The notes below the pieces were generated by a model. That model saw only the letters and a list, made by a program, of their open reading frames with translations. It was not told the origin of the DNA and searched no databases. From an uncultured Gammaproteobacteria bacterium (GTDB lineage: Bacteria > Patescibacteriota > Patescibacteriia > Magasanikbacterales > JBBTQS01): a stretch of 64,000 bases of DNA. The stretch covers positions 4,090-68,089 of the forward strand of contig OZ246400.1 of assembly GCA_965230935.1 (NCBI GenBank). Direction: 5' to 3'. This document shows positions 1 to 13,695 of this stretch, in pieces (the first letter of the stretch is position 1; each line of letters opens with the position of its first letter). A program made the translations under genes and the position numbers.

Positions 1-75
1 ATGAACCAAGAGCATGATATTCTCAAGATGTTGATCGATGCGCCCGAACGAACAGTAGATGATTGGATTGAATAA
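1..75 (+). CDS. 3' end of an upstream hypothetical protein (partial, runs off the window start)
   Basis: Open frame from base 1 to TAA at 73-75, followed by a rho-independent terminator. No family recognised. Confidence 0.3.
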   Translation: MNQEHDILKMLIDAPERTVDDWIE

Positions 76-85
76 ACTTAGGGGT

Positions 86-110
86 AAAAACCCGCTTCGG
101 CGGGTTTTTT
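86..110 (+). terminator. rho-independent terminator
   Basis: A-tract, then stem CCCGC / loop TTCG / stem GCGGG, then TTTTTT (aaaaacccgcttcggcgggtttttt). Confidence 0.8.
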
Positions 111-111
111 G

Positions 112-140
112 ATTGACAAAAAACGGTTTATGTGGTAGTA
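112..140 (+). promoter_or_regulatory. sigma70-like promoter (TTGACA-17-TAGTAT) for the helicase gene
   Basis: TTGACA at 112-117, a 17-nt spacer, then TAGTAT. It sits immediately after the terminator and before the helicase start. Confidence 0.5.
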
Positions 141-152
141 TTAGTTTCTTCT

Positions 153-1463
153 ATGAGAGAAAAAGAATCACAAACAGGTACATTTGCAGGTCTTGGCATC
201 GCAAAAAATTTTTTGGAGTGTTTACACAAAAAAGGATTTACAACACCAACCCCAATCCAGCATCAGATTATCCCAGGAGCAGTACAGGGGAAAGATGTTA
301 TTGGTATTGCACAAACAGGAACCGGAAAAACACTTGCATTTGGTATCCCTATGATCCAACGTCTTGGTACCTTAAAAGGGCAAGGGCTTGTTTTGGTTCC
401 AACACGTGAGCTTGCTTTGCAAGTGGATGAAGCATTACGCCACGTGGGAGCGTCACTTGGATTACGCACTGCTGTTATCATCGGGGGTACGTCACAGCAT
501 CCACAAGTTAAGGCATTACAAAAGAATCCGCATGTGGTTATTGCAACACCAGGAAGACTTGCAGATCTTATGCAGCAAAAGAAATACACACTTGATCGTG
601 TTTCCATTGTGACGCTAGACGAAGCAGATAGAATGTTGGATGTTGGTTTTTTGCCGCAGATTACAAAAATTCTTCAAGCGGCACCAAAACAAAGACAGAT
701 CATGTTGTTTTCGGCAACCATGCCAAAGTCCATCTCACAACTTGCTACCAAATTCATGACCATTCCACTTCGTATCGAGGTGGCACCACAAGGGACGTCA
801 GCTGAGAATGTAGAACAAGAAATTTTTGTAGTACGAAAGCCAGAAAAGATACGACTTCTTGATTCTATTCTTACAGAATATCGCACAGAGACTATTCTTA
901 TCTTTTCCCGGACAAAACATGGTGCGAAAAAAATGGCTCGTCAAATTAGGGCCATGGGGCATACGGCAACAGAAATTCATGGGAATAGATCTCAGGCGCA
1001 ACGAAGGAATGCCCTGGAAGGGTTTACCCAGAAGAAGTATCGAATTTTGGTAGCAACTGATATCGCAGCACGTGGTATTGATGTATCACATATTTCACTC
1101 GTTATTAATTACGACCTTCCAGACAACTCAGAAGATTACGTGCATCGAATCGGAAGAACGGGACGAGCAGGAAAATATGGCAAAGCAATTTCATTTGTTA
1201 CTCCTTCACAAAAAGCAGATGTGCGAAAAATTGAACAGTTGATTAGAAAAGCACTTCCGATACTCAGGCTGCCAGAATTGCCACCGCAAAGGGAGCGTCC
1301 ACCAAAAGAACTTCAACATAACAAGTCTCATACCCAAAAAAGAGCTGGAGCGCGTTTTCAGGGAAGCAAGACAAAAAGAAAAAAGAAGAAAAGTGGAGGA
1401 GGGTATACTAAACGAAAAGGTGGAAGTTTAAAATTAAATAGATCGAAGAGGAAACGGAGATAG
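153..1463 (+). CDS. DEAD-box ATP-dependent RNA helicase
   Basis: Q-motif region TPTPIQ, Walker A AQTGTGKT, DEAD box (LDEADRML), SAT, HRIGRTGRAG, and a Lys/Arg-rich C-terminal tail. The frame is open from GTG 132; I chose ATG 153 because the predicted -10 overlaps 132. Confidence 0.9.
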   Translation: MREKESQTGTFAGLGIAKNFLECLHKKGFTTPTPIQHQIIPGAVQGKDVIGIAQTGTGKTLAFGIPMIQRLGTLKGQGLVLVPTRELALQVDEALRHVGASLGLRTAVIIGGTSQHPQVKALQKNPHVVIATPGRLADLMQQKKYTLDRVSIVTLDEADRMLDVGFLPQITKILQAAPKQRQIMLFSATMPKSISQLATKFMTIPLRIEVAPQGTSAENVEQEIFVVRKPEKIRLLDSILTEYRTETILIFSRTKHGAKKMARQIRAMGHTATEIHGNRSQAQRRNALEGFTQKKYRILVATDIAARGIDVSHISLVINYDLPDNSEDYVHRIGRTGRAGKYGKAISFVTPSQKADVRKIEQLIRKALPILRLPELPPQRERPPKELQHNKSHTQKRAGARFQGSKTKRKKKKSGGGYTKRKGGSLKLNRSKRKRR

Positions 1464-1465
1464 AT

Positions 1466-1975
1466 TTATTTACTCAGCACCTTACATTCTCTTGTTTTTT
1501 CTGCAATGAGAATGGTAAAAGATTCGCCAACTCGCTTGCCGAGTAATGCGCTGCCAATCGGTGAAAGGTGCGAGATGGTGTTTTTACCTGGATCAGTTTC
1601 GCTTGGGCCAAGAATGGTGTACGTTTTTTTCTGTCCGTCAAGTGCAATGGTTACCGTGTCCCCAAGAGCAATCTCCTGTGTGTTTTGTTTTTGTATAATG
1701 ATGGCTCTTTTGAGATGATCTTCAATATGAAGGATTCTTCTATTGATGCCTCGTAACTTGCCTTTAGCAAGTTGATACTCTGCGTTTTCTGAAAAATCCC
1801 CCAGTTCTGCCAGTCGTTGTACTTCACGAGCGGCATGTGGGTGTTTTTTCTTCAGGCGATGTAGTTCATTTTCCAACTCTTTCTTTTTGCGTTGGGTAAT
1901 ATGTGGATCTGGCTTGAGATTGGTAAACTTACCGGGTTTTCGATAGGGTACTCGCATATGAAAAGATAGTAGCAT
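1466..1975 (-). CDS. greA: transcription elongation factor GreA
   Basis: N-terminal coiled coil plus the conserved AELGDFSENAEY motif and a C-terminal FKBP-like domain. AGGAAT Shine-Dalgarno lies 5 nt upstream of the ATG at 1975. Confidence 0.85.
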   Translation of the reverse strand: MLLSFHMRVPYRKPGKFTNLKPDPHITQRKKKELENELHRLKKKHPHAAREVQRLAELGDFSENAEYQLAKGKLRGINRRILHIEDHLKRAIIIQKQNTQEIALGDTVTIALDGQKKTYTILGPSETDPGKNTISHLSPIGSALLGKRVGESFTILIAEKTRECKVLSK

Positions 1976-2058
1976 GTATTCCTACTGATAAAAACCCAAT
2001 GAGCTTTTGCTAGGAAGATAAAAGTATTACCTGAAACAAGAGAGGAGCCTGAATAAGA

Positions 2059-2604
2059 TTATAAATCATGTGCGTCAATACCATCACTTATCAAGCGTTG
2101 TATTTTGCGGACGTAGTCGATATGTTTAATATTTGATTGGACATCTTCTGTTCGAGGGTTCCAAACAGATTTCATTCCCACGATTTTTGAAACCGTGGTA
2201 GTGTCATTGATAAGCATTACCGTTTGTAAATCCACTGAGGTGCTATCATTTTCTATCGGCCGTCTTTCGTTGATTGATCGATTCAGTTTTTGAGTGAGAA
2301 TTGTTTGTTTGATTTGTTCAAGCTCGGCATCGTCGAGCGTAAACGATAAGGATTTCTCAGTATCAAAATCTTCATCCGGATGATAGCCACCATAATGCCA
2401 GGTGTATGTTCCTTGATTATCTGCGATGGTAAGAGTTTCAACTTCCCAGTGTGCGTCCATGCTGTGTTCTTGCTCTTCAAAAGCGATTGAAAGATAAAAA
2501 TCATGGCCAGTGGGTATTTCAACTGGAATTTTGGGCGTGCGAGTGAGAGCGATTGCCAGAAGGGCTAATGCAGTCGCCACGACAAGTAAAAGAGATTTTT
2601 TCAT
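2059..2604 (-). CDS. hypothetical secreted protein/lipoprotein (signal peptide)
   Basis: N-terminus MKKSLLLVVATALALLAIAL is a typical signal peptide. No family recognised. Confidence 0.6.
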   Translation of the reverse strand: MKKSLLLVVATALALLAIALTRTPKIPVEIPTGHDFYLSIAFEEQEHSMDAHWEVETLTIADNQGTYTWHYGGYHPDEDFDTEKSLSFTLDDAELEQIKQTILTQKLNRSINERRPIENDSTSVDLQTVMLINDTTTVSKIVGMKSVWNPRTEDVQSNIKHIDYVRKIQRLISDGIDAHDL

Positions 2605-2670
2605 AGCTTTGGGCTAATTGTAGCATATCTAGACAAACGTGAGAGAATCCTATATATTTGGTGCAGTCTT

Positions 2671-2752
2671 GGGTCGGTACCGAAGCGGTCAAACGGGGCT
2701 GACTGTAAATCAGCTGGCTACGCCTTCGGGGGTTCGAATCCCTCCCGGCCCA
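2671..2752 (+). tRNA. tRNA-Tyr (anticodon GTA)
   Basis: 7-bp acceptor stem GGGTCGG/CCGGCCC, anticodon loop CTGTAAA (GUA), long variable arm, T-loop GGTTCGAATCC, discriminator A. No CCA is encoded. Confidence 0.85.
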
Positions 2753-3127
2753 CAGTATGATTTTGTATGATCTTTCATCAGCAAAAATGGCTACTCATTA
2801 AGTGGCTATTTTTGTTTTCAAATAAAAAACAGCACCCCAGCGTTGCGCCAGAGTGCGTGAAGGAAAAGGGTTAGACGGGCTCGAACGCGACGCAAGCTCC
2901 TACACAAGTATCGCGAACGGCCCACCACGACGGAGGTTCCAATGGAATTACATCATGGTGAACTTCGCCCGCCTTACCCAGCTCCGCAGTGTTCACCGCG
3001 GAACTTGTATCTGAAGTGCCCAAGGGCAAGGGAGTAGTGATCCCCCGCCCCCAGGCCGGTTGTGGTGTTCACCGCGTGATGCGAGGACCCTGGCAGGTCA
3101 CTCAAATCACGCAAGAAGGAGTACGAA

Positions 3128-3400
3128 ATGCACTCGTCCCCCTGCCCGCGTTGCGGATTCTTCCACCCCCGAGACCCAAGGAGTTCACCAAGGGTCAATT
3201 GTTTTGATCAATTGCGCGGGCGGCGAAGGGGATCCGACCCCCCTTCAACCACCCACGACTTCGGCTGCAGACAGATCCTGAGACCACGCCGTCAGACCGG
3301 CATGACCTCGCAATCGAGACAAGGAAACACGCTAATGAGAACTTGCCCCTTCTGCTGTAACTGTCTTCGTCCGCGTGTAAACAAGTATACAAAATACTGA
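3128..3400 (+). CDS. small Cys-rich basic ORF inside the GC-rich island (possible zinc ribbon: CPRC...CPFCC)
   Basis: AAGGAG Shine-Dalgarno 7 nt upstream of ATG 3128, and the stop overlaps a perfect hairpin. The Arg-rich composition could instead be a wrong-frame artefact of GC-rich DNA. Confidence 0.25.
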   Translation: MHSSPCPRCGFFHPRDPRSSPRVNCFDQLRGRRRGSDPPSTTHDFGCRQILRPRRQTGMTSQSRQGNTLMRTCPFCCNCLRPRVNKYTKY

Positions 3401-3425
3401 ACACCTGTCAAGTACAGGTGTTCAG
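3397..3425 (+). terminator. perfect 11-bp-stem hairpin (CTGAACACCTG-tcaagta-CAGGTGTTCAG)
   Basis: Perfect inverted repeat read directly from the sequence. No strong U-tract follows, so it could equally be an operator or RNA hairpin. Confidence 0.4.
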
Positions 3426-3574
3426 TCAAGATCGACGATAGATATTCCAGAGAATCCGAATGTATTGGCTCACTTGACTCATCTCCCACTCATTCAGTTC
3501 GGAAAACGGGAAGTTCGGCCCACCAATGCAAAAAGGCGCCTAATTTAGCAGCCTTTTTCATTCTTCTAAAGCAT

Positions 3575-3607
3575 TGACATTGTTCACTTTTTGTGGTGAA
3601 ATAGAAT
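3575..3607 (+). promoter_or_regulatory. sigma70-like promoter (TTGACATTGT ... TGAAAT/TAGAAT) inside an AT-rich pocket of the GC island
   Basis: TTGACA at 3575-3580, TGAAAT at 17-nt spacing, followed by TAGAAT. It shares the 11-mer ATTGACATTGT and TAGAAT with the tRNA-Thr promoter at 5809-5837. Confidence 0.45.
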
Positions 3608-3685
3608 TTGCCCTCTTGATTCGAGTAGGGTCTGCCAAACAATCCATTTGTTTTGAAGACCTTCTTCGTATCGTCCGGAGAGGCG

Positions 3686-3828
3686 CGCTCGGCGTGAAAA
3701 TACAGACCACAACAACGGTGTTGTAACATGTCGCTCGGTGACATGGTTTGTCAGAATTTCCCCAGACGAATAGTGCTCGGCACTAGGGGTGCTACGTGCA
3801 TAGCAATGTGCTGTTTCACTCGGTGAGA
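3686..3828 (+). repeat. four direct repeats of (C)GCTCGG(C/T)(G/A) at ~42-46-nt periodicity in the leader upstream of the 3861 ORF
   Basis: GCTCGG at 3687, 3733 and 3775, and ACTCGG at 3818. Four copies of a 6-mer in ~140 nt at a regular period are unlikely by chance. Confidence 0.4.
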
Positions 3829-3860
3829 CAAGTGGTGATTCTTTAGAAGACGGAGGAACC

Positions 3861-4724
3861 GTGGACGATCAAGTCTATAAACGGTATCTCGAGCTCGCGA
3901 AACTTCTTAGGAGATGCGGGCTCTTCAGTGTTTACCTGGCTATCATGATGGCAGCCAGGTCGCGCAAGCAGTTCGACACCATGATGGCGGAGCTGCCTGA
4001 CCACGCACGACTGATGCGCGAGGATCAGGTGGTGCTCTGGAAGGCTCTCAGCGCTGTCTGGGGGAAGGGTATTCCGACGGCAGATCACCTGAACTTGGCG
4101 GGGCGTGAGCTCCTGTTCAAGCCGGTGTTCGACGATCCGAAGGCCACTCTCGTCTGGTACTACAAGTTCGTGTTGTGTAAGGACCGTGAGCCTGCGAGCC
4201 TTTCCGCCTATGGGATTGGCCGACAGGACGAGCGACGCCTCATTCATGGTATCGAGGAGCGTTCGGGACGTGGGGCGCAGCACTTCTCGGTTCAGTGTGC
4301 TGGTCAGCTCTTCAGCGTCGGCTGCAACCTATTCGATGATGTCATGCTGGTGGAGTTCGAGCTTTCTGTCAAGAACCTCACCGAGCAGATGACACAGGCC
4401 ATCCGCAGCTGTAAGTCGCTGATGCGTCTGAACACGCGTCGTGGCTCAAGCGTTGATGACAAGGTGACCTTCGTCGTCGAGCTCAGCAACGTGGATGACC
4501 TGGCCGCCGTGGTCACCCAAGTCGAAACGGGGTGTGGACCTCTCGACCTGCTCGATCCTGACGACTTCACATTCGAGCGCCTGCTCACGGCGCGTCTTCG
4601 TGATCTGGAGCTGCCGCTCGAGTCGTCGGTCGGTCGAGTCGTCGACCACAACCCTGCGCTGAAGCATCACTTCCCCAAACATCCTGAGGGGCAGTGGAGC
4701 ATCCAGTTCCCGGCCATGGACTAA
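3861..4724 (+). CDS. hypothetical protein (GC-rich island cargo)
   Basis: GTG start with GGAGGA Shine-Dalgarno at 3852-3857, a 287-codon open frame, and a terminator hairpin after the stop. No family recognised. Confidence 0.6.
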   Translation: MDDQVYKRYLELAKLLRRCGLFSVYLAIMMAARSRKQFDTMMAELPDHARLMREDQVVLWKALSAVWGKGIPTADHLNLAGRELLFKPVFDDPKATLVWYYKFVLCKDREPASLSAYGIGRQDERRLIHGIEERSGRGAQHFSVQCAGQLFSVGCNLFDDVMLVEFELSVKNLTEQMTQAIRSCKSLMRLNTRRGSSVDDKVTFVVELSNVDDLAAVVTQVETGCGPLDLLDPDDFTFERLLTARLRDLELPLESSVGRVVDHNPALKHHFPKHPEGQWSIQFPAMD

Positions 4725-4764
4725 CCTCCATCGTGGTCTAAACTCACAAAACAAACACAACCAG

Positions 4765-4800
4765 AACGCAACCCTACGGGTTGTCGTTTTGTTTAGTTTT
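4765..4800 (+). terminator. rho-independent terminator
   Basis: Stem (ACG)CAACCC / GGGTTG(CGT) followed by a T-rich tract tcgttttgtttagtttt. Confidence 0.5.
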
Positions 4801-4957
4801 GATTTGTTACTGATTCATCCGGCTTGTAAATCTTCCCAAAATCAAAACACACCATCGTTGGTGTGTCTTGTTGGTTTGCCTAAACTTCCGTCATCTCCTG
4901 CGACGGCAATGCCTAGGGCTTGCTCGGATGACCGAGTGCGCCGCCACGCGCTCCCGA

Positions 4958-5570
4958 TCAGTCCTTGATGCGGACCACGCCGTCCGTGCCGACCTCCAGG
5001 GTCTGCTCGACGATGGCCGCCGCCACCGAGGCGTTGAGGCTGGTCCACAGCGTGTTGGTCGCGACGGCCTTCGCCAGCTCCCGGTCGCGCGCGAGGTCCG
5101 TCAGCTCGCAGCGCGCCGAGGTGAAGCCGTCCTGAGCCGCCGCGAGCCGAGCCAGGTTGGCCGGATCGCAGAACGGGTCCGCCAGGTCGTCCACCAGGAC
5201 CACGATGGCGTCGTCCACGTGCTCCTCGATCTCGGTCGCGTTGCCCTTGGTGCACTTGCCGACCACCGGCGTGGCGTCCTCGACGTTGCTCGGACCACCG
5301 GCGGGGTTGCTGTGGTTGCCGCCGACCAGCTCGACCTCGGTGAACTCCACACACAGGATGAACGAGTTGGGGTGCTGCGCCGTGAGCTCGGAGATGAGCT
5401 CGTCGGTGCAGTCGCCCTCCTCCTCGTACGTCAGCGTGCTGCTCCCGTCCTTGGCTTGGACCTCGATCTCGGCGACGGTCGTGGTCTGCGCGAGGGCGGT
5501 GGCGGGGACGGCGAAGGTGGCGGCGATGGCGGCGATGCAAAGAACGAACTCGATACCATAGTGACGCATG
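4958..5570 (-). CDS. hypothetical secreted protein (GC-rich island cargo)
   Basis: Internal ATG at 5570 gives MRHYGIEFVLCIAAIAATFAVPATALAQ, a clear signal peptide, with GGAG just upstream. It lies in the longest frame, 4958-5710. Several acidic, Cys-containing segments follow. Confidence 0.55.
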
Positions 5571-5808
5571 GATCTTCTCCCTTTCGATGATGCGCGTTCG
5601 ATGTGGGGTGTGAAGGATTCCTTCCCTCCTACTGCATCTCGCTTCCCACTTGGCGAGATGAGGTCCCTAACTCCCTCCTCGGAAGATTGAAACAGTAGAC
5701 TATAGCACATTTGGACGGTTTTGTCAAGGGTGTCAAAGTAACAATTTAGCTAAAATAAGGTTAATTTGATAAAATAGGCCAATTTCCCCCCGGATAAATT
5801 AGGCTAAA

Positions 5809-5837
5809 TTGACATTGTGGTAATTTGAAGGTAGAAT
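5809..5837 (+). promoter_or_regulatory. sigma70 promoter for tRNA-Thr (TTGACA-17-TAGAAT) with upstream A/T-rich repeated motifs
   Basis: Consensus -35 TTGACA, a 17-nt spacer and TAGAAT. Repeated AAAATA(A)GG..AATTT motifs at 5745-5806 resemble a UP element. Two hairpins in the leader precede the tRNA. Confidence 0.6.
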
Positions 5838-5938
5838 ATAGGGGCAAAAGTTGTCTTGCCGCCAACCTTAGCAACTTCGTCGCTAAGGTTGCTCGTTCGG
5901 AAAAGCATGAACGCAAGCGTTCAGCTTTTCACTCACTC

Positions 5939-6012
5939 GCCACCTTAGCTCATCTGGCTAGAGCGACGGTTTTGTAAACCGTAGGTACCGGGTTCGAGTC
6001 CCGGAGGTGGCT
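5939..6012 (+). tRNA. tRNA-Thr (anticodon TGT)
   Basis: Acceptor GCCACCT/AGGTGGC, anticodon stem ACGGT/ACCGT with loop TTTGTAA (UGU), T-arm CCGGGTTCGAGTCCCGG. Confidence 0.9.
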
Positions 6013-6101
6013 CACTTTCGAGGATGTACAGGCCGTGTTTATGGTGGTACATCTCACGGAATCCATTGCGGTCTACACTGAGGTTGATAACGAATCAACC
6101 T

Positions 6102-7844
6102 ATGGAAATCGACAGACTCCTGATGGAGTTCGCCGGGGACCGCGTGGCCTTGCGCGGCTACTCGCCCCACACAATGCGGCGCCAAGTGCAGGCGGCGCGA
6201 CAGTTCTTCACGGTCACCGGCATCGGCGCCCTATCAGAGGTGAGCTACGACGTGGACGCCCGCCAGAGCCAACAGCTACGCGATGAAACTGACTTGACCG
6301 CTGAGCAGGTTCAGCCGAGCAGTTCGCCGAACTGGTGGCAGTTTCTCACGCTCCCGAAGGGGCGCGTACGTCAGTACTGGACGCGTGCAGCCCGCGAGGT
6401 GGTTAGGGAGGTTGAGGCTTCAGAGTCCCCACTGGTCTTCATCACCTTCCATGCGAAATATCAAAGCGATGTGTACCGATGGCGGTTCTCACCATGTAAT
6501 CCGGTGCTGCTGCAAACGATAGGCATCAGAGCCTTCTTTACCCTCATCGATGATGTCTACCAGATGCACAAGCGGCGTCCCGGAGACATTCAGAGCGAAC
6601 GTCAGATGTGCTTCAAGTACGAAGATCCGGCGGAGCGCGCGCTCGCCCTGGTGAGAGAGACTAAGGCTTCCCTCGTCGAGCTGATCAGGTGGCGGCAAGA
6701 GGAGATTGCGACGACGGAGATGCTTGCGGCTGTGTCCGGTTGTTCTGCGCAGCTCGTGTCGATCCGACATCCGCTGGCCACGATGCACAAGCTGTTGGAA
6801 TCACCCGAGTCGGCATTTTACTTCTCACATCCGATTACTGGAGTTCGCGCCGACCCGAACTTTCCGGACGTGGTTGGTCTGAAGGAGATCGAGGATATCT
6901 CAAGCGAGCTCCGCGGTCGCTTCACACTGATTGAACCAACTACTATTGACGAGTACAGGATTGAGCAGCTGGGGCAGGGCACCCCCGCACCGCGTCTGAT
7001 TCCTCGACTGTCATGCCGATGGCCGTTCCCGGCTGGTGAGGACGAGATGCTTGGCGGCTCCGACGGCTTTCCCACGTTCGGTAAGCAAGAACTGCTCTGT
7101 CCGCGCGAGAACGTCGTCGCGCTAGAGTTGGAGGAATTCTTCGCGGATTTGCTGGCCGGAACCGCCCCGGAGGAGCCCACACATCTGGTTTCGGAGTCGA
7201 TCGGTGGCTTGGTTGATCTGCTAAAAGAAGACATCACCTGGCGGGATCACACGCTTGTAGACCAATGCGGACGCCTCGTGGTGTTCCGCCCGGCGTACCG
7301 CGGGATTCCGTCGACCGGAGTTCGCAGAGAGATTGAGTACTATCGGAAGCTAGCTCTTAGCGGTCCACAAGACAAACACTTCTGCGTATTGCTTCACCCG
7401 CCGGACGACGATGACGCCTTGGCCCAGTACATAGCGTTGAAACTTGTTTCTTCGTGGGCCGAGGACTCGGGCGTGGGCCCGCACATTCGACCACGTCTTG
7501 ATGTCGGGGCCGAAAATCAACTCATTCGAGACCTGACGGTCGCGCTCGGCAGCGACGCCGATGAGGAGACCACGGCCCGAGCATGTGCGGATGCGCTTTC
7601 CCCACGGATTGAACCGGAAGTCAGCGGACCGTCCCCAATGACGAGTGGTCGTCGTGTCGGAGCGCGAACAAGGAACAAAGAGGTCTTGCAGGCGGCCGCA
7701 GCCCGCGCGCTGTCGACGATACAAGATCACCGCTACTTTCGCTCTGGCGGCCTGATGCCAGGACGCGCGGCCGCCACTGACGATGCACGGCCACCACAAC
7801 CCTGCTGTTTTCTGAGTAATACGCCGTTTGGTGCAGTCGTTTAA
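6102..7844 (+). CDS. large hypothetical protein; the N-terminus resembles the core-binding (SAM-like) domain of tyrosine recombinases
   Basis: LMEFAGDRVALRGYSPHTMRRQVQAARQFF follows the XerC/XerD N-domain pattern (..RGLS.NT..AYRRDL..F). No canonical R-K-H-R-H-Y catalytic domain was recognised. Only weak RH...Y resemblance at RHPLATMHKLLESPESAFYFSH. The frame is open from 6024. Confidence 0.5.
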   Translation: MEIDRLLMEFAGDRVALRGYSPHTMRRQVQAARQFFTVTGIGALSEVSYDVDARQSQQLRDETDLTAEQVQPSSSPNWWQFLTLPKGRVRQYWTRAAREVVREVEASESPLVFITFHAKYQSDVYRWRFSPCNPVLLQTIGIRAFFTLIDDVYQMHKRRPGDIQSERQMCFKYEDPAERALALVRETKASLVELIRWRQEEIATTEMLAAVSGCSAQLVSIRHPLATMHKLLESPESAFYFSHPITGVRADPNFPDVVGLKEIEDISSELRGRFTLIEPTTIDEYRIEQLGQGTPAPRLIPRLSCRWPFPAGEDEMLGGSDGFPTFGKQELLCPRENVVALELEEFFADLLAGTAPEEPTHLVSESIGGLVDLLKEDITWRDHTLVDQCGRLVVFRPAYRGIPSTGVRREIEYYRKLALSGPQDKHFCVLLHPPDDDDALAQYIALKLVSSWAEDSGVGPHIRPRLDVGAENQLIRDLTVALGSDADEETTARACADALSPRIEPEVSGPSPMTSGRRVGARTRNKEVLQAAAARALSTIQDHRYFRSGGLMPGRAAATDDARPPQPCCFLSNTPFGAVV

Positions 7845-8046
7845 TTGCGCTTCGCAACGGTAGTCGGCCGACTCCTCACTGAGAAGAGGCGTTCGCATTT
7901 GCGAACACTGGACCGAACTGGCACCTGCAGCCGCCCGGGCTAGACAGATCCGCATGAGAAATGTTACTGTTGATCCGTCCCGCATGGCCCCGACCGGTTG
8001 AGAGTTGTTGCGGCGCTAAATTTAGCTAATCCAATAGAACAACCCC

Positions 8047-8090
8047 TTTGTAAACCGTAGGTACTGGGTTCGAGTCCCAGAGGTGGCTCA
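8047..8090 (+). repeat. attR-like direct repeat: displaced copy of the tRNA-Thr 3' half
   Basis: 42 of 44 bp are identical to 5969-6012, and the two mismatches are compensatory within the T-stem. Confidence 0.75.
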
Positions 8091-8139
8091 AGGAAGGATA
8101 AAAAAGCCATGGGGACGTAGTGAGCGAAAGCGAACGTCT

Positions 8140-8161
8140 GTCCCAGAGGTGGCTCAAGGAG
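8140..8161 (+). repeat. second tandem copy of the tRNA 3' terminus (GTCCCAGAGGTGGCTCAAGGAG)
   Basis: 21 of 22 bp match 8074-8095, about 45 bp downstream. The intervening sequence contains a GGACG/CGTCC hairpin. Confidence 0.6.
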
Positions 8162-8174
8162 TAACCAAAATACT

Positions 8175-8330
8175 ATGTCACAAGATAATCTGACTAGAAT
8201 GGAGTGTACTGGGTGCCAGCAAGTAACCCATCACACCAAGAAAAATAAAAAGAAGCTTAAAGACCGCCTTACCCTCAAAAAGGGGTGTAAGTTTTGTGGT
8301 AAGCATACCGACCACAAGGAGACGAAGTAA
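8175..8330 (+). CDS. rpmG: 50S ribosomal protein L33 (zinc-ribbon form)
   Basis: 51-aa ORF MSQDNLTRMECTGCQQVTHHTKKNKKKLKDRLTLKKGCKFCGKHTDHKETK. It matches the L33 pattern ..C..C....TKKNKRN....LELKK.C..C.KHT.H.E.K. It is absent from the ORF track because it is under 60 aa. Confidence 0.85.
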   Translation: MSQDNLTRMECTGCQQVTHHTKKNKKKLKDRLTLKKGCKFCGKHTDHKETK

Positions 8331-8377
8331 TACGGTTGAGACAAGAGAGAAAGCGTGCTACAATGCCATAATATTTT

Positions 8378-8827
8378 ATGGCATTTCGCATATGTACAAC
8401 GTGTTTCGTCAAAAAGCCTGTAGAACATTTTAGTGTACGAGATATTCGGATCGGTCGGCGACATCGAGTATGTAAGATGTGTCACAAAACGTATCGTCGT
8501 AAGCATTACCTGCGTAATAAAGAGAAGTACATTAAAAAGGCGCGCAGGTGGAATGGGAAACAACGTAAGAGTATAGAAGATTTTTTATTCCGATATTTAT
8601 CAAAACACCCTTGTATTGATTGTGGGGAGGGTGACGTGGTGGTACTTGATTTTGATCATCGCTATGATAAGCGCATGGCGATCACGCAGATGATGAAGAA
8701 TTGCTACGCACTTGAAACGATCAAGAAAGAGATAAAGAAATGTGAAGTTCGTTGTGCTAATTGCCATAGAAGGCGAACTGCTATAGAATGTGGGTACTGG
8801 AAAATTAAACGTCAATTGGGCCCATAG
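8378..8827 (+). CDS. HNH endonuclease (free-standing, homing-endonuclease-like)
   Basis: N-terminal Cys-rich zinc-binding region (CTTCF...CKMCH), then an HNH core CIDCGE...LDFDHRYDK...CANCHRRRT. Confidence 0.8.
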   Translation: MAFRICTTCFVKKPVEHFSVRDIRIGRRHRVCKMCHKTYRRKHYLRNKEKYIKKARRWNGKQRKSIEDFLFRYLSKHPCIDCGEGDVVVLDFDHRYDKRMAITQMMKNCYALETIKKEIKKCEVRCANCHRRRTAIECGYWKIKRQLGP

Positions 8828-8897
8828 TTTCAATTGGCAAAACGCAAGTCTCCAAAACTTGAGTTCTTCGTTCAAATCGAAGTGGGCCTGCCAATCT

Positions 8898-8926
8898 AAA
8901 ACACCCCTCGCTGAGGGGTGTTTTTA
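8898..8926 (+). terminator. rho-independent terminator (bidirectional-looking)
   Basis: A-tract, then stem CACCCCTC / GAGGGGTG, then TTTTT (aaaacacccctcgctgaggggtgttttt). Confidence 0.75.
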
Positions 8927-8942
8927 TATCACGTTTCAAATA

Positions 8943-9152
8943 CTAATATTCATCCTCATCAAAATCTTTCTTTTTCGTCCATTCAATTTTGCCATCAGTA
9001 CTGATCTTGGCTAAGAACCACATCAGAATTGGTAGACCAATGATGAGAGCAAGTAAGGTAATTACGCCTTGAGTTTCTGTCATAGAATGTGATATCTGTT
9101 TGCCTTGATCATACCGGAACAAGTGGAAATGTTCAACCAATCCTGTTACCAT
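8943..9152 (-). CDS. possible small membrane protein
   Basis: One predicted TM helix (VITLLALIIGLPILMWFLA). No Shine-Dalgarno. It overlaps the 5' end of the frame of the next + strand gene. Confidence 0.3.
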   Translation of the reverse strand: MVTGLVEHFHLFRYDQGKQISHSMTETQGVITLLALIIGLPILMWFLAKISTDGKIEWTKKKDFDEDEY

Positions 9153-9161
9153 ACCAATACT

Positions 9162-10004
9162 ATGCAGCAGTCCAAATCTACGATAGCAAAAAATATTAGA
9201 GCAGCAGAACTTGCCGTGCTTAAAAAGCAGTGGTGGCTTTGGGTGCCGCTTTGGCTCATTGTTGTTACAATCATTGCGCTTGAAGTGAGCGCGAGTTCTG
9301 GCGAAAGTTCATTTGGTATTTTTCTCGCCTTTGTCTTATTTGGAGTAATGATGTGGCGGGTGCAACATGTGCGTGGTGATTTTTGGAAAGCGTTCGCGTT
9401 AGAACACGGGCTGGTATATAACAAAAGGGGATCAACTGATGATGAAAAAGGATTGATATTCAATCAAAAAGATCACGCTGCTTTCACCAGTTATAGCCAC
9501 ATCTATCATCTGCTCACTGGAACTCACCGTGGCCGCCTAATGCGCATGTTTGAGTTAACCTTTACTCAAAAGATAGGGAAGCATGAGAAAAAATATTGGT
9601 TTACGGTTTTTGAACTAACAATGAAAGGAACCTTTCCCCACATATATTTGAACTATAAGCATGATGGTTACGTGGCAAAAATGAAAGGAAATGTTACTAA
9701 GATTCCACTACCAGGTGACGTCGCCAATCAGTACACACTTTACGCTCCACATCAGTATGAAATTGAAGCACTGGAAATTTTTACCCAGTCAATTTTCCAA
9801 TTTTTGTTGGATGGTCAATTTTCGCTCGATGTTGAAATCATTGATGGTGAAGTAATCTTTTATCGACACAAGCGAGTGAATAGTCGGGAGGAGCTTGAAG
9901 AAGCGTTTACCCATGCTGCAGCGCTTTTTGAAAAAATTGCGGCGCGTCTTGATCGGTCAAAATTGTACACCATTGGTGACCATCCGCATGAGATAACGCA
10001 ATAA
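9162..10004 (+). CDS. hypothetical membrane protein (two N-terminal TM helices, soluble C-domain)
   Basis: Open frame from TTG 9105. ATG 9162 was chosen as the start. TM segments WWLWVPLWLIVVTIIALEV and FGIFLAFVLFGVMMW. Immediately followed by an ABC transporter pair. Confidence 0.6.
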   Translation: MQQSKSTIAKNIRAAELAVLKKQWWLWVPLWLIVVTIIALEVSASSGESSFGIFLAFVLFGVMMWRVQHVRGDFWKAFALEHGLVYNKRGSTDDEKGLIFNQKDHAAFTSYSHIYHLLTGTHRGRLMRMFELTFTQKIGKHEKKYWFTVFELTMKGTFPHIYLNYKHDGYVAKMKGNVTKIPLPGDVANQYTLYAPHQYEIEALEIFTQSIFQFLLDGQFSLDVEIIDGEVIFYRHKRVNSREELEEAFTHAAALFEKIAARLDRSKLYTIGDHPHEITQ

Positions 10005-10008
10005 TAGT

Positions 10009-10722
10009 ATGCAGGCACTTAGTGTTTCTCACTTTACCAAACGATATGGAAAAAATTTGGCTGTAGATAACCTATCTTTTACGGTTGCGCCAGGTGAGTT
10101 TTTTGGATTTTTGGGTCCTAATGGAGCCGGAAAAACAACTACGATTAGTGCCATTACCGGAACCGTGAGATTTTCAGAAGGGGCTATCATGGTATTTGGC
10201 ACTGATGTGCAGAATAATTATCGTGAAGCTCGTAAAAAAATTGGCGTATCACCACAAGAGTTTAATGTTGATATATTTGCTACAGCGGAAAAGATCCTTT
10301 GGTACGCTGGTGGGTATTATGGGATGAATAAGACAAAACGTCGTGACCGGATCAAGACCCTGTTTGAAATATTAGAACTCACTGCTCATGCACATAAACG
10401 GTTTAAAGAGTTATCCGGGGGGCTCAAGCGAAGAGTCATGTTGGCGCGTGCCATGATTCATGATCCTGAGATATTGATTCTTGATGAACCAACAGCAGGA
10501 GTTGATGTGGAGTTATGTCAACAATTGTGGAAGTACTTACAAGAAATTAATGCACAAGGTAAGACGGTGATTCTTACCTCACATTATCTTGAGGAGGTCG
10601 AACTTCTTTGCAATCGTATTGGTGTTATCGCGAATGGAAAGTTGGTTGGCATTGATTCCAAAGATGCTTTTGTGCGCCATGGAAGTCTTGAGCAAGAATA
10701 CTTGCGTCTGACGCAATCATGA
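10009..10722 (+). CDS. ABC transporter ATP-binding protein
   Basis: Walker A GPNGAGKTT, signature LSGGLKRR, Walker B ILILDEPTAGVD. Confidence 0.9.
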   Translation: MQALSVSHFTKRYGKNLAVDNLSFTVAPGEFFGFLGPNGAGKTTTISAITGTVRFSEGAIMVFGTDVQNNYREARKKIGVSPQEFNVDIFATAEKILWYAGGYYGMNKTKRRDRIKTLFEILELTAHAHKRFKELSGGLKRRVMLARAMIHDPEILILDEPTAGVDVELCQQLWKYLQEINAQGKTVILTSHYLEEVELLCNRIGVIANGKLVGIDSKDAFVRHGSLEQEYLRLTQS

Positions 10723-11489: not shown

Positions 11490-11496
11490 GTGATCT

Positions 11497-13678: not shown

Positions 13679-13695
13679 ACTACGGAGCTACAGGA

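What the first reader, a model, noticed from the sequence alone, without database searches (positions are those of the whole stretch)
2753..5710. ~2.9-kb GC-rich island between tRNA-Tyr and the tRNA-Thr promoter carrying ORFs with strong Shine-Dalgarno sites and no recognisable family
Composition jumps sharply right after tRNA-Tyr (~2830) and drops again at ~5700. Inside are a 287-aa cytoplasmic ORF (GTG start, GGAGGA Shine-Dalgarno, own terminator), a convergent 204-aa secreted protein with a clean signal peptide, and possibly a 90-aa Cys-rich ORF (AAGGAG Shine-Dalgarno). None resembles a housekeeping family. Host genes in this window rarely show such strong Shine-Dalgarno sites, and the codon composition differs from them. 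Placement next to a tRNA suggests horizontal acquisition, but I found no convincing direct repeat of the tRNA-Tyr 3' end at the far boundary. Only a weak AACTCCCTCC resemblance is present at ~5676.
Basis: partly seen in the sequence, partly recalled or inferred. Interest (0 to 1): 0.6.

Follow-up and report, generated by a model that had tools for sequence, protein, structure and literature searches.

The report
Mosaic tRNA-linked island hiding new RNAs
The GC-rich stretch beside two tRNA genes of a small-genome (probably Patescibacteria) bacterium is a patchwork of separately acquired DNA pieces, and its conserved core is an undescribed folded RNA that always precedes a protein with no recognisable fold.

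Summary
The composition jump is real, but the island is larger and composite. GC-rich DNA runs 2830-5710 and again 6013-8050, split by tRNA-Thr and its AT-rich promoter.

Five modules were resolved:
1. An insertion at the tRNA-Tyr 3' end (2754-3523). Its cargo is a ~550-nt, very strongly structured RNA candidate on the minus strand (z = -8), with its own promoter and terminator. The 90-aa Cys-rich ORF is antisense to it and probably spurious.
2. A self-contained cassette of a ~190-nt pseudoknotted leader RNA (3660-3846), the 287-aa ORF and a terminator. A relative (L001) has it at the same Tyr/Thr position.
3. A secreted-protein gene with GC3 0.94 and no detectable homologue.
4. A 2.08-kb insertion at tRNA-Thr bounded by a 44-nt direct repeat. 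It carries an orphaned kinase-fold gene whose homologues follow GGDEF or deaminase genes.
5. A further 66-bp scar of the tRNA-Thr end.

No integrase remains. The leader RNA sits upstream of every 287-aa-family gene examined. It has 96.6% paired cells, and 38 of 51 modelled pairs covary. It is absent from Rfam. The protein matches no family and no fold in the libraries available.

Verdict: an ordinary kind of tRNA-linked mosaic that contains one well-supported and one candidate new RNA class.

The parts
2671..2753 (+). tRNA-Tyr (GTA). Its 3' end CGGCCCAC (2746-2753) is the left junction of the first insertion.
   Evidence: ARAGORN, Rfam tRNA 56.5 bits, pattern search.
2785..2820 (.). Hairpin plus T/A tracts directly after tRNA-Tyr, able to terminate in both directions.
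   Evidence: Read from the sequence.
2754..3523 (.). About 770-bp insertion at the tRNA-Tyr 3' end. Copies of the tRNA end (CGGCCCAC, followed by CA at both sites) lie at 2918-2927 and 3516-3525. The stretch 3515-3616 is colinear with L001's tRNA-Tyr end, terminator, -35 box and leader start.
   Evidence: Three + strand copies within 770 bp, against 1.2 expected on both strands of the whole window. Local alignment to L001 scores 36 against a shuffle mean of 21, with 1 of 200 shuffles as high. In L001 only about 90 nt separate tRNA-Tyr from the leader.
2826..3377 (-). Candidate ~550-nt highly structured non-coding RNA, an orphan with no homologue found.
   Evidence: MFE -270.6 kcal/mol, z = -8.06, with 0 of 100 shuffles as good. 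The + strand gives -191 kcal/mol, z = -1.19. In a sliding scan only this tract reaches z = -5.5 to -9.1 on one strand, while the other GC-rich coding DNA is mostly near z = 0. The fold has 188 pairs, 19% G-U, and uninterrupted stems up to 16 bp. No Rfam match.
3384..3411 (-). Sigma-70-type promoter for the minus-strand RNA (TTGACA-16-TATACT, 11/12). It is embedded in a perfect 13-bp palindrome (3396-3426) that looks like an operator.
   Evidence: I14.
2832..2856 (-). Intrinsic terminator of the minus-strand RNA (11-bp stem followed by TGTTTTTTAT).
3128..3400 (+). 90-aa Cys-rich ORF of the finding. Probably spurious, because it is antisense to the structured RNA.
   Evidence: GC1/2/3 = 0.46/0.62/0.59, not a coding pattern. 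No promoter-like site upstream. No family hit.
3530..3558 (.). Terminator-like hairpin. By position it is the ancestral tRNA-Tyr terminator.
   Evidence: Inverted repeat I24. Colinear with the L001 terminator.
3574..3602 (+). Putative promoter of the leader/287-aa cassette (TTGACA, 17 nt, TGAAAT). The -10 assignment is uncertain.
   Evidence: A TTGACA box lies 287-320 nt upstream of the start codon in 7 of 8 family loci, and 239 nt in L001. The consensus scan did not call it.
3660..3846 (+). Conserved ~190-nt structured leader RNA with 11 helices in the two-sequence consensus, 9 of which remain as positions in the nine-sequence model. Four hairpins carry identical C-UCG-G loops. A pseudoknot joins the P1 loop UCGUC (3671-3675) to GACGA (3765-3769).
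   Evidence: About 87% identical to L001, more than the CDS. RNAalifold gives 65 pairs, 0 broken and 7 compensatory. Covariance models R1 and R2 hit directly upstream of every family ORF. 96.6% of cells are paired and 38 of 51 pairs covary, with 0 of 500 shuffles as high. Pseudoknot covariation. Not in Rfam.
3861..4724 (+). 287-aa protein of a rare, undescribed family (GTG start, GGAGGA at 3852-3857).
   Evidence: Orthologue P0002 at 54% identity (BLASTP), full length. 14 remote homologues of 243-316 aa. Invariant residues R50, L51, D55, Y100, Y101, E175. Codon-position identity 0.67/0.71/0.52. AF2 pLDDT 82, pTM 0.80. No Foldseek match with E <= 0.001 in PDB or BFVD.
4768..4795 (+). Intrinsic terminator of the 287-aa gene.
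4847..4866 (.). Hairpin downstream of the 204-aa gene, read as its terminator on the minus strand. The scan listed it on the + strand.
   Evidence: and the sequence.
4958..5572 (-). 204-aa secreted protein gene with extreme GC3. A separate and probably recent acquisition.
   Evidence: GC1/2/3 = 0.66/0.45/0.94, the canonical pattern of a real high-GC gene, whereas overlapping frames lack it. Signal peptide MRHYGIEFVLCIAAIAATFAVPATALA/Q. No homologue found.
5699..5727 (-). Promoter of the 204-aa gene (TTGACA-17-TATAGT, 11/12, with an extended TG), lying in host-like AT-rich DNA.
5809..5837 (+). Promoter of tRNA-Thr (TTGACA-17-TAGAAT, 11/12).
5939..6013 (+). tRNA-Thr (TGT). Its 3' part (5971-6014) is the left repeat (attL) of the second insertion.
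6014..8046 (.). About 2.08-kb GC-rich insertion at tRNA-Thr, carrying no integrase.
   Evidence: GC 0.53-0.63. Bounded by direct repeat D1 with 2076-bp spacing. No integrase domain in any ORF.
6024..7844 (+). 606-aa ORF (573 aa from the start used in public gene calls). The N-terminal ~215 residues have an archaeal adenylate-kinase-like fold. Here the gene lacks its usual upstream partner.
   Evidence: 12 homologues besides its own entry, none with a Pfam domain. In the five places read for P0006 (one protein on near-identical contigs) and the one place read for P0008 they follow a GGDEF gene, and in one other locus a deaminase gene, with a 4-nt overlap to the GGDEF genes. AF2 pLDDT 75. Foldseek 7owl E = 3e-6. 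The first ~50 residues have pLDDT below 50 and do not align to the homologues' FAFTGIPGTG start.
8047..8090 (+). Displaced tRNA-Thr 3' part (attR), 42/44 identical to 5971-6014. The two differences are compensatory in the T-stem (C..G in the live tRNA, T..A here).
8140..8160 (+). Third copy of the tRNA-Thr 3' end plus its flank (GTCCCAGAGGTGGCTCAAGGA). This is the scar of another, almost completely deleted insertion, and the rpmG ribosome-binding site follows it directly.
   Evidence: Direct repeat D4 with 66-bp spacing, and the sequence.

Best explanation
The GC-rich tract is a mosaic of foreign DNA that has accumulated at the 3' ends of two neighbouring tRNA genes in a small, ~42% GC genome, probably a Patescibacteria bacterium. 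It is not one island.

Shown:
- An element inserted into tRNA-Thr regenerated the tRNA with its own T-stem version and displaced the original 3' part to 8047-8090.
- A second tRNA-Thr scar follows at 8140-8160.
- The three GC-rich coding genes have three different codon compositions.

Probable: a ~770-bp insertion at the tRNA-Tyr 3' end (2754-3523), whose only cargo is a ~550-nt highly structured RNA gene on the minus strand.

Inferred: integration was by tyrosine-type site-specific recombination, and the integrase genes and most cargo were later deleted.

Between the insertions lies the conserved core, a self-contained cassette of promoter, ~190-nt pseudoknotted leader RNA, 287-aa protein and terminator. 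It is inherited at this locus since the common ancestor with L001, but it sits at unrelated loci in more distant lineages.

My preferred mechanism for the cassette is inferred, not shown. The leader is a cis-acting translational control element bound by its own product. Its three or four hairpins display one identical loop sequence that changes in concert between lineages. The folded domain ends about 10 nt before the Shine-Dalgarno site, so bound protein would block the 30S subunit (autogenous repression).
For: Composition and mosaic
- GC3 of 0.73, 0.94 and 0.67 against 0.31-0.40 in host genes.

tRNA-Thr insertion
- 44-nt repeat, 42/44 identical, with a compensatory T-stem difference; a third 21-nt copy follows 66 bp later.

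tRNA-Tyr insertion
- CGGCCCAC occurs three times within 770 bp.
- 3515-3616 is colinear with L001's tRNA-Tyr end, terminator and -35 box.
- In L001, tRNA-Tyr and the leader are only about 90 nt apart.

The locus is variable among relatives
- The Tyr-Thr gap is 32 nt in L082, holds an unrelated membrane protein in L078 and L083, and holds the 283-aa orthologue in L001.

Minus-strand RNA
- Promoter at 11/12 and an intrinsic terminator.
- z = -8.06 on the minus strand against -1.19 on the other.
- Unique in a sliding scan.

Leader RNA
- More conserved than the CDS.
- An unbiased MAFFT plus RNAalifold run on 8 leaders gives 35 pairs, 23 with compensatory changes.
- A covariance model built from the window and L001 alone finds full-length hits upstream of six other lineages, at 21-55 bits.
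- Model R2 finds the untrained L099 at 82.5 bits and nothing else in 1.39 Mb.
- 96.6% of cells are paired, against 73.6% in shuffles and 36-49% with slid partners; 38 of 51 pairs covary.
- The pseudoknot UCGUC/GACGA covaries to UCAUC/GAUGA.
- Loops are the same within a leader and differ between lineages.

Protein
- Under purifying selection, with third codon positions the most divergent.
- Family of 16.
Against: - No integrase or other recombinase is present in 2754-8160, so the mode of integration is inferred from repeats only.
- The tRNA-Tyr repeat is only 8-10 nt. On its own it is not significant: 33 of 300 shuffles score as well.
- The 550-nt RNA has no homologue anywhere I could search. 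It therefore rests on thermodynamics and flanking signals, without covariation or expression data.
- Uninterrupted stems of 11-16 bp are unusual for a functional bacterial RNA.
The same loop pattern would fit an RNA partner, antitoxin or scaffold role. The GGA-type loops of most lineages also resemble CsrA sites.
- The 287-aa-family genes are richer in GC than their hosts in every lineage, which this model does not explain.
- The covariation counts were made on alignments fitted to the model.
Confidence: 0.7

Rival explanations
1. One reading: one horizontally acquired ~2.9-kb island (2753-5710) integrated at tRNA-Tyr and carrying three protein genes.
For: The GC jump after tRNA-Tyr and the dip at about 5700. 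All ORFs lack family matches.
Against: The three coding genes differ strongly in GC3. The 287-aa gene with its leader is shared at the same locus with L001, while the flanking blocks are not. The tRNA-Tyr end recurs at 3516, not at 5700. The GC-rich tract continues to 8050, with its own repeats of the tRNA-Thr end. The 90-aa ORF is not coding-like.
Confidence: 0.07
2. Assembly chimera: reads from a high-GC organism were wrongly joined into a low-GC genome.
For: Very sharp composition boundaries. GC3 of 0.94 in a 42% GC genome. No homologue of the 204-aa gene to anchor it.
Against: The GC-rich blocks alternate with host-like DNA that holds a functional tRNA-Thr and consensus promoters. The junctions coincide with repeats derived from tRNA ends. 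L001, a different organism, has the core cassette at the same site. A second public assembly is identical over 14.7 kb.
Confidence: 0.03
3. The leader RNA is the functional partner of the 287-aa protein rather than a cis-regulator. In this view the pair forms a mobile two-component RNA-protein system, for example a type III-like toxin-antitoxin or defence module, or an RNA-scaffolded oligomer.
For: The RNA and the protein are always together. Three or four identical loops per RNA change in concert between lineages. The cassette is compact, has its own promoter and terminator, occurs sporadically, is GC-atypical and sits at unrelated loci. An 11-helix pseudoknotted fold is more elaborate than most protein-binding leaders.
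Against: There are no tandem direct repeats and no terminator between the RNA and the ORF. The protein matches no ToxN, AbiQ or other PADLOC model and no known toxin fold. Its neighbours are housekeeping genes, not defence islands.
Confidence: 0.25
4. The leader is a riboswitch or other ligand- or condition-sensing RNA that controls the 287-aa gene.
For: It lies in a 5' UTR, has multi-stem junctions and a pseudoknot, and has conserved unpaired nucleotides (UUCCCC...GAYGA). P1 is a conserved CUUCUUC/GAAGAGG pair, which could act as an anti-SD/SD-mimic switch.
Against: Loop sequences that change in concert between lineages are not expected for a small-molecule pocket. There is no expression platform such as a terminator or a clear SD-sequestering helix. 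The regulated gene gives no metabolic clue.
Confidence: 0.12
5. The strong fold of 2826-3377 is not an RNA gene. It would instead be DNA-level palindromic debris of a decayed mobile element, or an antisense regulator of a real 90-aa ORF.
For: There is no homologue and so no covariation. Stems are long and near-perfect. An AAGGAG sequence precedes the 90-aa ORF.
Against: The 80 kcal/mol strand asymmetry comes from 35 G-U pairs. DNA palindromes would fold equally on both strands. A promoter at 11/12 and a terminator bracket exactly the structured tract on the minus strand. The 90-aa frame is not coding-like.
Confidence: 0.2

Closest known systems
tDNA-integrated genomic islands (Islander definition, PMC4383910)
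   Same: The insertions lie at the 3' side of tRNA genes. The tRNA is regenerated by island sequence. The displaced 3' fragment marks the far end as a direct repeat (44 nt at tRNA-Thr). Composition is atypical. Tandem accretion has occurred at one tRNA.
   Different: No integrase gene remains. The insertions are tiny (0.77 and 2.08 kb) and carry a single cargo each, in one case apparently an RNA gene. The tRNA-Tyr repeat is only 8-10 nt.
ROOL and GOLLD large ornate RNAs (Rfam; PMC5737381, PMC12286853)
   Same: The 2826-3377 candidate is large (about 550 nt, where ROOL averages 581 nt). It is non-coding, lies next to a tRNA gene and is inside mobile DNA. The paper states that GOLLD and ROOL are often near tRNAs and in prophages.
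   Different: No covariance-model match even at E <= 10. No homologues are known, so no conserved junctions or pseudoknots can be shown. The predicted fold is a row of long hairpins rather than an ornate multi-junction fold.
Autogenously regulated leaders bound by their own product (ribosomal-protein leaders, phage MS2 coat and T4 RegA operators). This comparison rests on established knowledge, not on a test here.
   Same: A structured 5' leader lies immediately upstream of the ribosome-binding site of the gene whose product is the proposed binder. Hairpin-loop recognition elements are present.
   Different: The leader is much larger (11 helices and a pseudoknot) and has three or four repeated identical loops. 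Binding is untested. The protein is of unknown fold and function.
Type III toxin-antitoxin systems (ToxIN, CptIN, TenpIN)
   Same: An RNA element directly upstream of a protein gene in one compact, mobile cassette. Repeated RNA units appear to co-evolve with the protein.
   Different: There are no tandem direct repeats and no intervening terminator. The protein is larger and unrelated to the ToxN/AbiQ folds.
CsrB/RsmZ-type RNAs with GGA hairpin loops. This comparison rests on established knowledge.
   Same: Most lineages show three or four hairpins with C-NGGA-G loops.
   Different: The window and L001 leaders have C-UCG-G, L096 has GGGC and L099 has ACGA. A conserved host CsrA therefore cannot be the common partner. 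The RNA is also a 5' leader rather than a free sRNA.
Nucleotide-signalling conflict systems built on GGDEF or minimal CRISPR polymerase enzymes (e.g. Panoptes, PMC11974786). This is relevant only to the 606-aa gene's relatives.
   Same: In the P0006 loci (one protein on near-identical contigs) and the P0008 locus, homologues of the 606-aa protein are translationally coupled to a GGDEF cyclase; one homologue follows a deaminase. One locus adjoins PDC-M38 candidate defence genes.
   Different: The family is not in PADLOC. The window copy lacks the partner gene and has a divergent N-terminus. No function has been tested.

Membership tests
tDNA-integrated genomic island | Lies at the 3' side of an intact tRNA gene | tested here: met
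   tRNA-Tyr 2671-2753 and tRNA-Thr 5939-6013 are intact. GC-rich DNA starts downstream of each.
tDNA-integrated genomic island | A displaced tRNA fragment forms a direct repeat at the far end | tested here: met
   tRNA-Thr: 5971-6014 against 8047-8090, 42/44 identical. tRNA-Tyr: only an 8-10 nt repeat at 3516, supported mainly by colinearity with L001, so that case is weaker.
tDNA-integrated genomic island | Encodes a tyrosine (or serine) integrase | tested here: not met
   No integrase domain in any ORF of 2754-8160. The integrase-like look of the N-terminus of the 606-aa ORF was not confirmed.
tDNA-integrated genomic island | Absent from the same site in relatives | tested here: met
   L001 lacks 2754-3523, the 204-aa cassette and the tRNA-Thr insertion. 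In L082 tRNA-Tyr and tRNA-Thr are 32 nt apart.
Any Rfam 15 RNA family (including ROOL, GOLLD, HEARO, OLE, riboswitches) | Covariance-model match | tested here: not met
   Only the three tRNAs reach the gathering score. At E <= 10 there are only chance hairpin hits, for both the leader and the 550-nt RNA.
Conserved structured RNA (general criterion) | Base pairs maintained by compensatory changes across lineages | tested here: met
   Leader: 38 of 51 pairs with double changes, 96.6% of cells paired, 0 of 500 shuffles as high, slid controls 36-49%. A structure-blind alignment gives 23 of 35 pairs. The untrained locus L099 is found at 82.5 bits. For the 550-nt RNA there are no homologues, so this could not be tested.
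Type III toxin-antitoxin | Tandem direct RNA repeats upstream of the toxin gene | tested here: not met
   TRF finds no array in 3560-3860.
Type III toxin-antitoxin | Toxin of the ToxN/AbiQ/CptN fold | tested here: not met
   No match to any ToxN/AbiQ or other toxin model in PADLOC or Pfam, and no Foldseek match.
CsrA-binding RNA | Several GGA motifs in hairpin loops | tested here: not met
   The window leader has C-UCG-G in all four hairpins. GGA loops occur in other lineages only.
P-loop NMP/adenylate kinase (606-aa ORF) | Kinase fold | tested here: met
   Foldseek matches archaeal adenylate kinases at E = 3e-6 to 1e-4, with TM-score 0.58-0.69 normalised to the target.
P-loop NMP/adenylate kinase (606-aa ORF) | Walker A motif GxxxxGK[ST] | tested here: not met
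   Homologues read FAFTG(I/V)xGTG without the lysine. The window copy has an unrelated, low-confidence N-terminus.
Autogenous translational operator | The gene product binds its own leader and represses translation | not testable with these tools
   Only indirect support: loops that change in concert, and the proximity of the folded domain to the Shine-Dalgarno site.

The most novel reading that the evidence does not exclude
The leader RNA and the 287-aa protein together form a new class of mobile RNA-protein system in Patescibacteria. The RNA would present three or four identical, lineage-specific hairpin loops to an oligomer of a protein with an undescribed fold, acting as an antitoxin-like partner, a scaffold or a guide rather than as a plain cis-regulator. 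Separately, the neighbouring ~550-nt minus-strand transcript would be the first member of a new class of large structured RNA carried by miniature tRNA-integrating elements, analogous in context to ROOL and GOLLD.
Probability: 0.25. Interest if true: 0.8.

Novelty: new variant of a known kind. Interest (0 to 1): 0.6.

Why it matters
tRNA-linked islands are ordinary, so the value lies in what this one contains.

- **A new RNA class.** The ~190-nt pseudoknotted leader is supported by covariation in seven lineages. It is tied one-to-one to a protein family that matches no Pfam, NCBIfam, PADLOC or PHROG model and no fold in PDB or BFVD by Foldseek. Patescibacteria are largely uncultured and have reduced genomes. 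A compact RNA-protein cassette that keeps moving between their genomes is a ready target for biochemistry, such as binding, structure and toxicity tests.
- **A candidate large RNA.** The ~550-nt candidate has exceptional predicted stability and appears to be the sole cargo of a 770-bp insertion at a tRNA. If real, it extends the link between large structured RNAs, tRNA genes and mobile DNA to a new phylum.
- **Annotation corrections.** The 204-aa gene is called on the wrong strand in the public record, and the 287-aa gene is given the wrong start.
- **Genome dynamics.** The locus shows that even ~0.9-Mb genomes accumulate and erode foreign DNA at tRNA genes.

Tried and rejected
- **DNA similarity.** blastn of 2754-8100 against plasmids gave nothing, and against phages gave only tRNA hits.
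- **Protein similarity to plasmids.** tblastn of the three proteins gave nothing.
- **Relatives of the 287-aa protein.** None were found in GTDB species genomes or JGI metagenomes.
- **Relatives of the other proteins.** None for the 204-aa protein in JGI metagenomes, and none for the 606-aa family in IMG/VR.
- **Curated libraries.** Pfam, NCBIfam, PADLOC and PHROGs gave nothing for the island ORFs apart from noise.
- **Solved structures by sequence.** Searches for the 287-aa family and the 204-aa protein gave noise only.
- **Integrase remnant.** I suspected that the N-terminus of the 606-aa ORF was the remnant of an integrase SAM-like domain. Pfam at E <= 10 does not support this, so I dropped it.
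- **Second leader copy.** A weak match at L001 444-637 (12.4 bits with R1) disappeared with the better model R2, so I treat it as chance.
- **Homologues of the 550-nt RNA.** None by blastn or nhmmer in 1.44 Mb of fetched loci, and none by two 20-mer scans of IMG/VR.
- **GreA synteny.** Most relatives do not keep the tRNA cluster next to greA, so only four loci were informative.
- **Pseudoknot counting.** A column-based count was not possible, because the J5 register differs between rows of the model alignment. I used string matching instead.
- **Failed run.** The first z-score scan timed out and was repeated successfully.

Full report
**1. The observation**

The window is about 41-48% GC, except for one tract. 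In 400-nt windows, GC climbs from 0.39-0.46 to 0.50-0.69 between about 2800 and 5700. It dips to 0.46 at 5601-6000 and is again 0.53-0.63 up to about 8100. In 1-kb bins, no other part of the 64 kb exceeds 0.483.

- tRNA-Tyr lies at 2671-2753, tRNA-Thr at 5939-6013 and tRNA-Trp at 8818-8893.
- GC3 is 0.31-0.40 in flanking host genes. It is 0.73, 0.94 and 0.67 in the 287-aa, 204-aa and 606-aa ORFs.

So the composition anomaly is real. However, it is about 5.3 kb long, not 2.9 kb, and it is interrupted by tRNA-Thr and its AT-rich promoter.

**2. The host, and whether the tract is an assembly artefact**

The identical protein is on record on a 931-kb contig. The named nearest GreA relatives are Magasanikbacteria, Falkowbacteria and other Patescibacteria MAGs. 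The host assignment is an inference from those titles; several unnamed TPA MAGs carry a 'Gammaproteobacteria' title that I do not trust.

A second public assembly (L003, ENA) is 100% identical to window 1-14724. I cannot tell whether it comes from independent reads.

Three further points argue against a chimera:
- The GC-rich blocks alternate with host-like DNA that holds consensus promoters.
- The block boundaries coincide with repeats derived from tRNA ends.
- A different organism (L001) carries the core gene at the same site.

**3. The tRNA-Thr insertion (6014-8046)**

The 3' part of tRNA-Thr (5971-6014) recurs at 8047-8090 with 42 of 44 positions identical. The two differences are compensatory in the T-stem: CCGGG/CCCGG in the live tRNA and CTGGG/CCCAG in the displaced copy.

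This is the signature described for tDNA islands. Island sequence regenerates the tRNA, and the displaced fragment marks the far end (PMC4383910, seen).

A third copy of the last 17 nt plus the 3' flank (GTCCCAGAGGTGGCTCAAGGA) lies 66 bp further on, at 8140-8160, directly before the rpmG ribosome-binding site (D4). This is a second, almost entirely deleted insertion.

The 2.08-kb block holds one gene, 6024-7844:
- Besides its own database entry it has 12 homologues, none with a Pfam domain.
- In the places read for two of them (P0006, on five near-identical contigs, and P0008) the homologue follows a GGDEF cyclase gene (PF00990, 124 bits) with a 4-nt overlap.
- In one other locus it follows a dCMP/APOBEC-like deaminase gene, next to PDC-M38 candidate defence genes.
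- An AF2 model has pLDDT 75. Its N-terminal ~215 residues match archaeal adenylate kinases (Foldseek E = 3e-6).
- The family lacks the Walker A lysine. The window copy has a divergent, low-confidence first ~50 residues and no partner gene.

No integrase domain is present.

**4. The tRNA-Tyr insertion (2754-3523) and a large structured RNA candidate**

*The insertion.* In L001, tRNA-Tyr is followed within about 90 nt by a terminator, a TTGACA box and the leader of the 283-aa gene. In the window the same order of features starts only at 3515: TCGGCCCAC-CAATG, then a terminator at 3530-3558, then CATTGACA. The local alignment scores 36 against a shuffle mean of 21, and 1 of 200 shuffles scores as high.

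The tRNA-Tyr end CGGCCCAC occurs at 2746, 2918 and 3516 on the + strand, where 1.2 matches are expected in the whole window on both strands. I read 2754-3523 as an insertion into the tRNA-Tyr 3' end. The repeat alone is too short to prove it: 33 of 300 shuffles give an 8-nt match.

*The RNA candidate.* Inside the insertion, the minus strand carries a sigma-70-type promoter at 3411->3384 (TTGACA-16-TATACT, 11/12). The promoter is embedded in a perfect 13-bp palindrome. An intrinsic terminator lies at 2856->2832.

The 552 nt between them fold far better on the minus strand:

| Strand | MFE (kcal/mol) | z-score | Shuffles as good |
|---|---|---|---|
| Minus | -270.6 | -8.06 | 0 of 100 |
| Plus | -191.0 | -1.19 | 11 of 100 |

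In a 300-nt sliding scan of 1801-9150, only this tract reaches z = -5.5 to -9.1 on one strand. The interiors of the GC-rich ORFs stay mostly near z = 0, apart from one window at 5251-5550 with z = -4.8 on the + strand. The other signals at or below z = -4 lie at the terminator region 4501-5100, at tRNA-Thr (both strands) and at 8701-9000 around tRNA-Trp.

The fold has 188 pairs, 19% of them G-U. This explains the strand asymmetry and argues for selection at the RNA level rather than for DNA palindromes.

It has GC1/2/3 of 0.46/0.62/0.59, no promoter and no family match, so I regard it as spurious.

The RNA matches no Rfam family even at E <= 10. I found no homologue in phages or plasmids, in 1.44 Mb of fetched loci or in two IMG/VR pattern scans. 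It therefore remains a candidate.

Its size and its position next to a tRNA gene inside mobile DNA recall ROOL and GOLLD (PMC5737381). Membership was tested and not met.

**5. The conserved core: leader RNA plus the 287-aa protein**

*The protein.*
- It has one close homologue, P0002 (54% identity by BLASTP, full length), in L001. There the order is tRNA-Tyr, gene, tRNA-Thr, rpmG, tRNA-Trp.
- Third codon positions diverge most (identity 0.67/0.71/0.52 by codon position), so it is a real protein under purifying selection.
- An exhaustive profile search found 14 remote homologues of 243-316 aa (E = 1e-18 to 3e-4).
- Residues R50, L51, D55, Y100, Y101 and E175 are invariant.
- The AF2 model is confident (pLDDT 82, pTM 0.80). 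It shows an N-terminal six-helix domain and a C-terminal alpha/beta domain.
- No Foldseek match with E <= 0.001 in PDB or BFVD, no match to PDB sequences and no family match.

*The leader RNA.*
- The 200 nt upstream of the start codon are about 87% identical between the window and L001. That is more than the CDS, and more than flanking housekeeping genes at 66-73%.
- RNAalifold on the pair gives 65 pairs, none broken and 7 compensatory.
- Upstream regions of remote family members show the same architecture.
- A structure-blind MAFFT alignment of eight leaders already yields 35 consensus pairs, 23 with compensatory changes.
- Covariance model R1, built from the window and L001 only, finds full-length matches directly upstream of the ORF in six other lineages: 54.6, 38.3, 36, 29.5, 24.7 and 21.3 bits.
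- Model R2, built from those eight, finds the untrained L099 leader at 82.5 bits (E = 7e-21). It finds nothing else in 1.39 Mb of Patescibacteria DNA.
- On the nine-sequence alignment, 96.6% of cells are paired, against 73.6% in shuffles and 36-49% with slid partners. 38 of 51 pairs have changes on both sides, and 0 of 500 shuffles reach any observed measure. That alignment is fitted to the model, so one search is the unbiased control.
- A pseudoknot between the P1 loop and the strand after the CCCC helix covaries: UCGUC/GACGA in the window, L001, L096 and L097, UCAUCUG/CAGAUGA in L090 and UCAUCC/GGAUGA in L098. L099 also has UCGUC/GACGA.

*The loops.* The three or four terminal hairpins of one leader carry the same loop, but the loop differs between lineages:

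| Lineage | Hairpin loop |
|---|---|
| Window, L001 | C-UCG-G (four hairpins) |
| L090 | AGGA |
| L093, L095, L098 | mostly CGGA |
| L097 | CGGA, AGGA, GGGA |
| L096 | GGGC |
| L099 | ACGA |

The RNA is absent from Rfam.

**6. How the core cassette most likely works**

Shown:
- The RNA fold is conserved.
- It is linked one-to-one with the protein family.
- It lies in the 5' leader and ends about 10 nt before GGAGGA.
- The cassette has its own TTGACA box and terminator.
- It sits at unrelated loci in different lineages, next to rpsO/pnp, tsf/rpsB, gap or dockerin proteins.
- It is always 5-14 GC points above its surroundings.

Inferred: identical loops that change in concert imply a single binding partner that co-evolves with the RNA. 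The only co-inherited candidate is the encoded protein. Several protein copies bound next to the ribosome-binding site would repress translation (autogenous control).

I give this about 0.35-0.4. An RNA-partner, type III-like or scaffold role gets about 0.25, and a ligand-sensing riboswitch about 0.12.

A host CsrA partner is unlikely, because the GGA motif is replaced in three lineages.

**7. The 204-aa gene**

- The minus-strand frame has GC1/2/3 of 0.66/0.45/0.94. This is the canonical signature of a real high-GC gene, and the overlapping frames do not show it.
- The public gene call in L003 is on the opposite strand (220 aa) and is probably wrong.
- The gene has a signal peptide.
- A near-consensus promoter in host-like AT-rich DNA (5727->5699, 11/12) drives it, and a hairpin at 4847-4866 follows it.
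- No homologue was found.
- L001 lacks it.
- The extreme GC3 suggests a recent transfer from a high-GC donor, which remains unidentified.

**8. Synthesis**

The finding is a real composition anomaly, and 'foreign DNA next to tRNA genes' is right in outline. Two tRNA genes have each collected insertions that later eroded, and no recombinase remains. One inserted gene has lost its usual partner. One proposed ORF is an artefact.

The conserved element in the middle is an RNA-protein cassette of an undescribed class. As an island it is an ordinary kind of object in an unusually miniature, integrase-free form. As a source of new RNA biology it is moderately interesting. The leader RNA is well supported. 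The 550-nt RNA rests on thermodynamics and flanking signals only.

Noticed in passing
window 8378-8827 (+): A phage-type HNH endonuclease ORF (PHROG 2255, E = 8.5e-29) sits between rpmG and tRNA-Trp and overlaps the start of tRNA-Trp. The same gap in L001 has no such gene. It has host-like GC, so it is a separate mobile insertion, possibly a homing endonuclease.
   Followed up: partly
window 4928-5590 (+) against 4958-5572 (-), and 3861 against 3984: In L003, the public gene calls place a 220-aa gene on the + strand, where codon-position GC shows that the real gene is the 204-aa minus-strand ORF. They also start the 287-aa gene at an internal ATG (246 aa), although the L001 orthologue supports GTG 3861.
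   Followed up: yes
L004-L008 (about 1214-5069), L009 1042-6518: Homologues of the 606-aa protein are translationally coupled (4-nt overlap) to a MazG-like plus GGDEF protein. In one case the homologue instead follows a dCMP/APOBEC-like deaminase gene 77 nt upstream. In L009 they adjoin PDC-M38A/B (AbiLi-like) candidate defence genes. This looks like an undescribed two-gene nucleotide-signalling conflict system.
   Followed up: partly
window 3396-3426: A perfect 13-bp inverted repeat (ACTGAACACCTGT N5 ACAGGTGTTCAGT) overlaps the -35 box of the minus-strand RNA promoter. It looks like an operator for a dimeric repressor that is not encoded nearby.
   Followed up: no
window 2918-2927: The minus-strand RNA contains UGGUGGGCCG, which is complementary to the last 10 nt of mature tRNA-Tyr including CCA (CGGCCCACCA). 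It may be only a remnant of an attachment site, but it resembles a primer-binding-site arrangement.
   Followed up: no
window 8091-8177: After the insertions, rpmG (8175-8330) is separated from the tRNA-Thr promoter by 2.1 kb of foreign DNA. Its ribosome-binding site directly follows the third tRNA-Thr scar, and no promoter-like site was found just upstream of it in the scan. How rpmG is now transcribed is unclear.
   Followed up: no
L099 50-337 (-), L091 3763-4539 (-): A GIY-YIG ORF lies next to one 287-aa-family cassette. A tyrosine recombinase gene lies 2.5 kb from another. These are possible hints about how the cassette moves.
   Followed up: no
L001 456-1409 (-): Two paralogous GC-rich ORFs (155 and 138 aa, no Pfam match) lie upstream of tRNA-Tyr in L001, so that relative also has GC-rich DNA at this tRNA cluster.
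   Followed up: no
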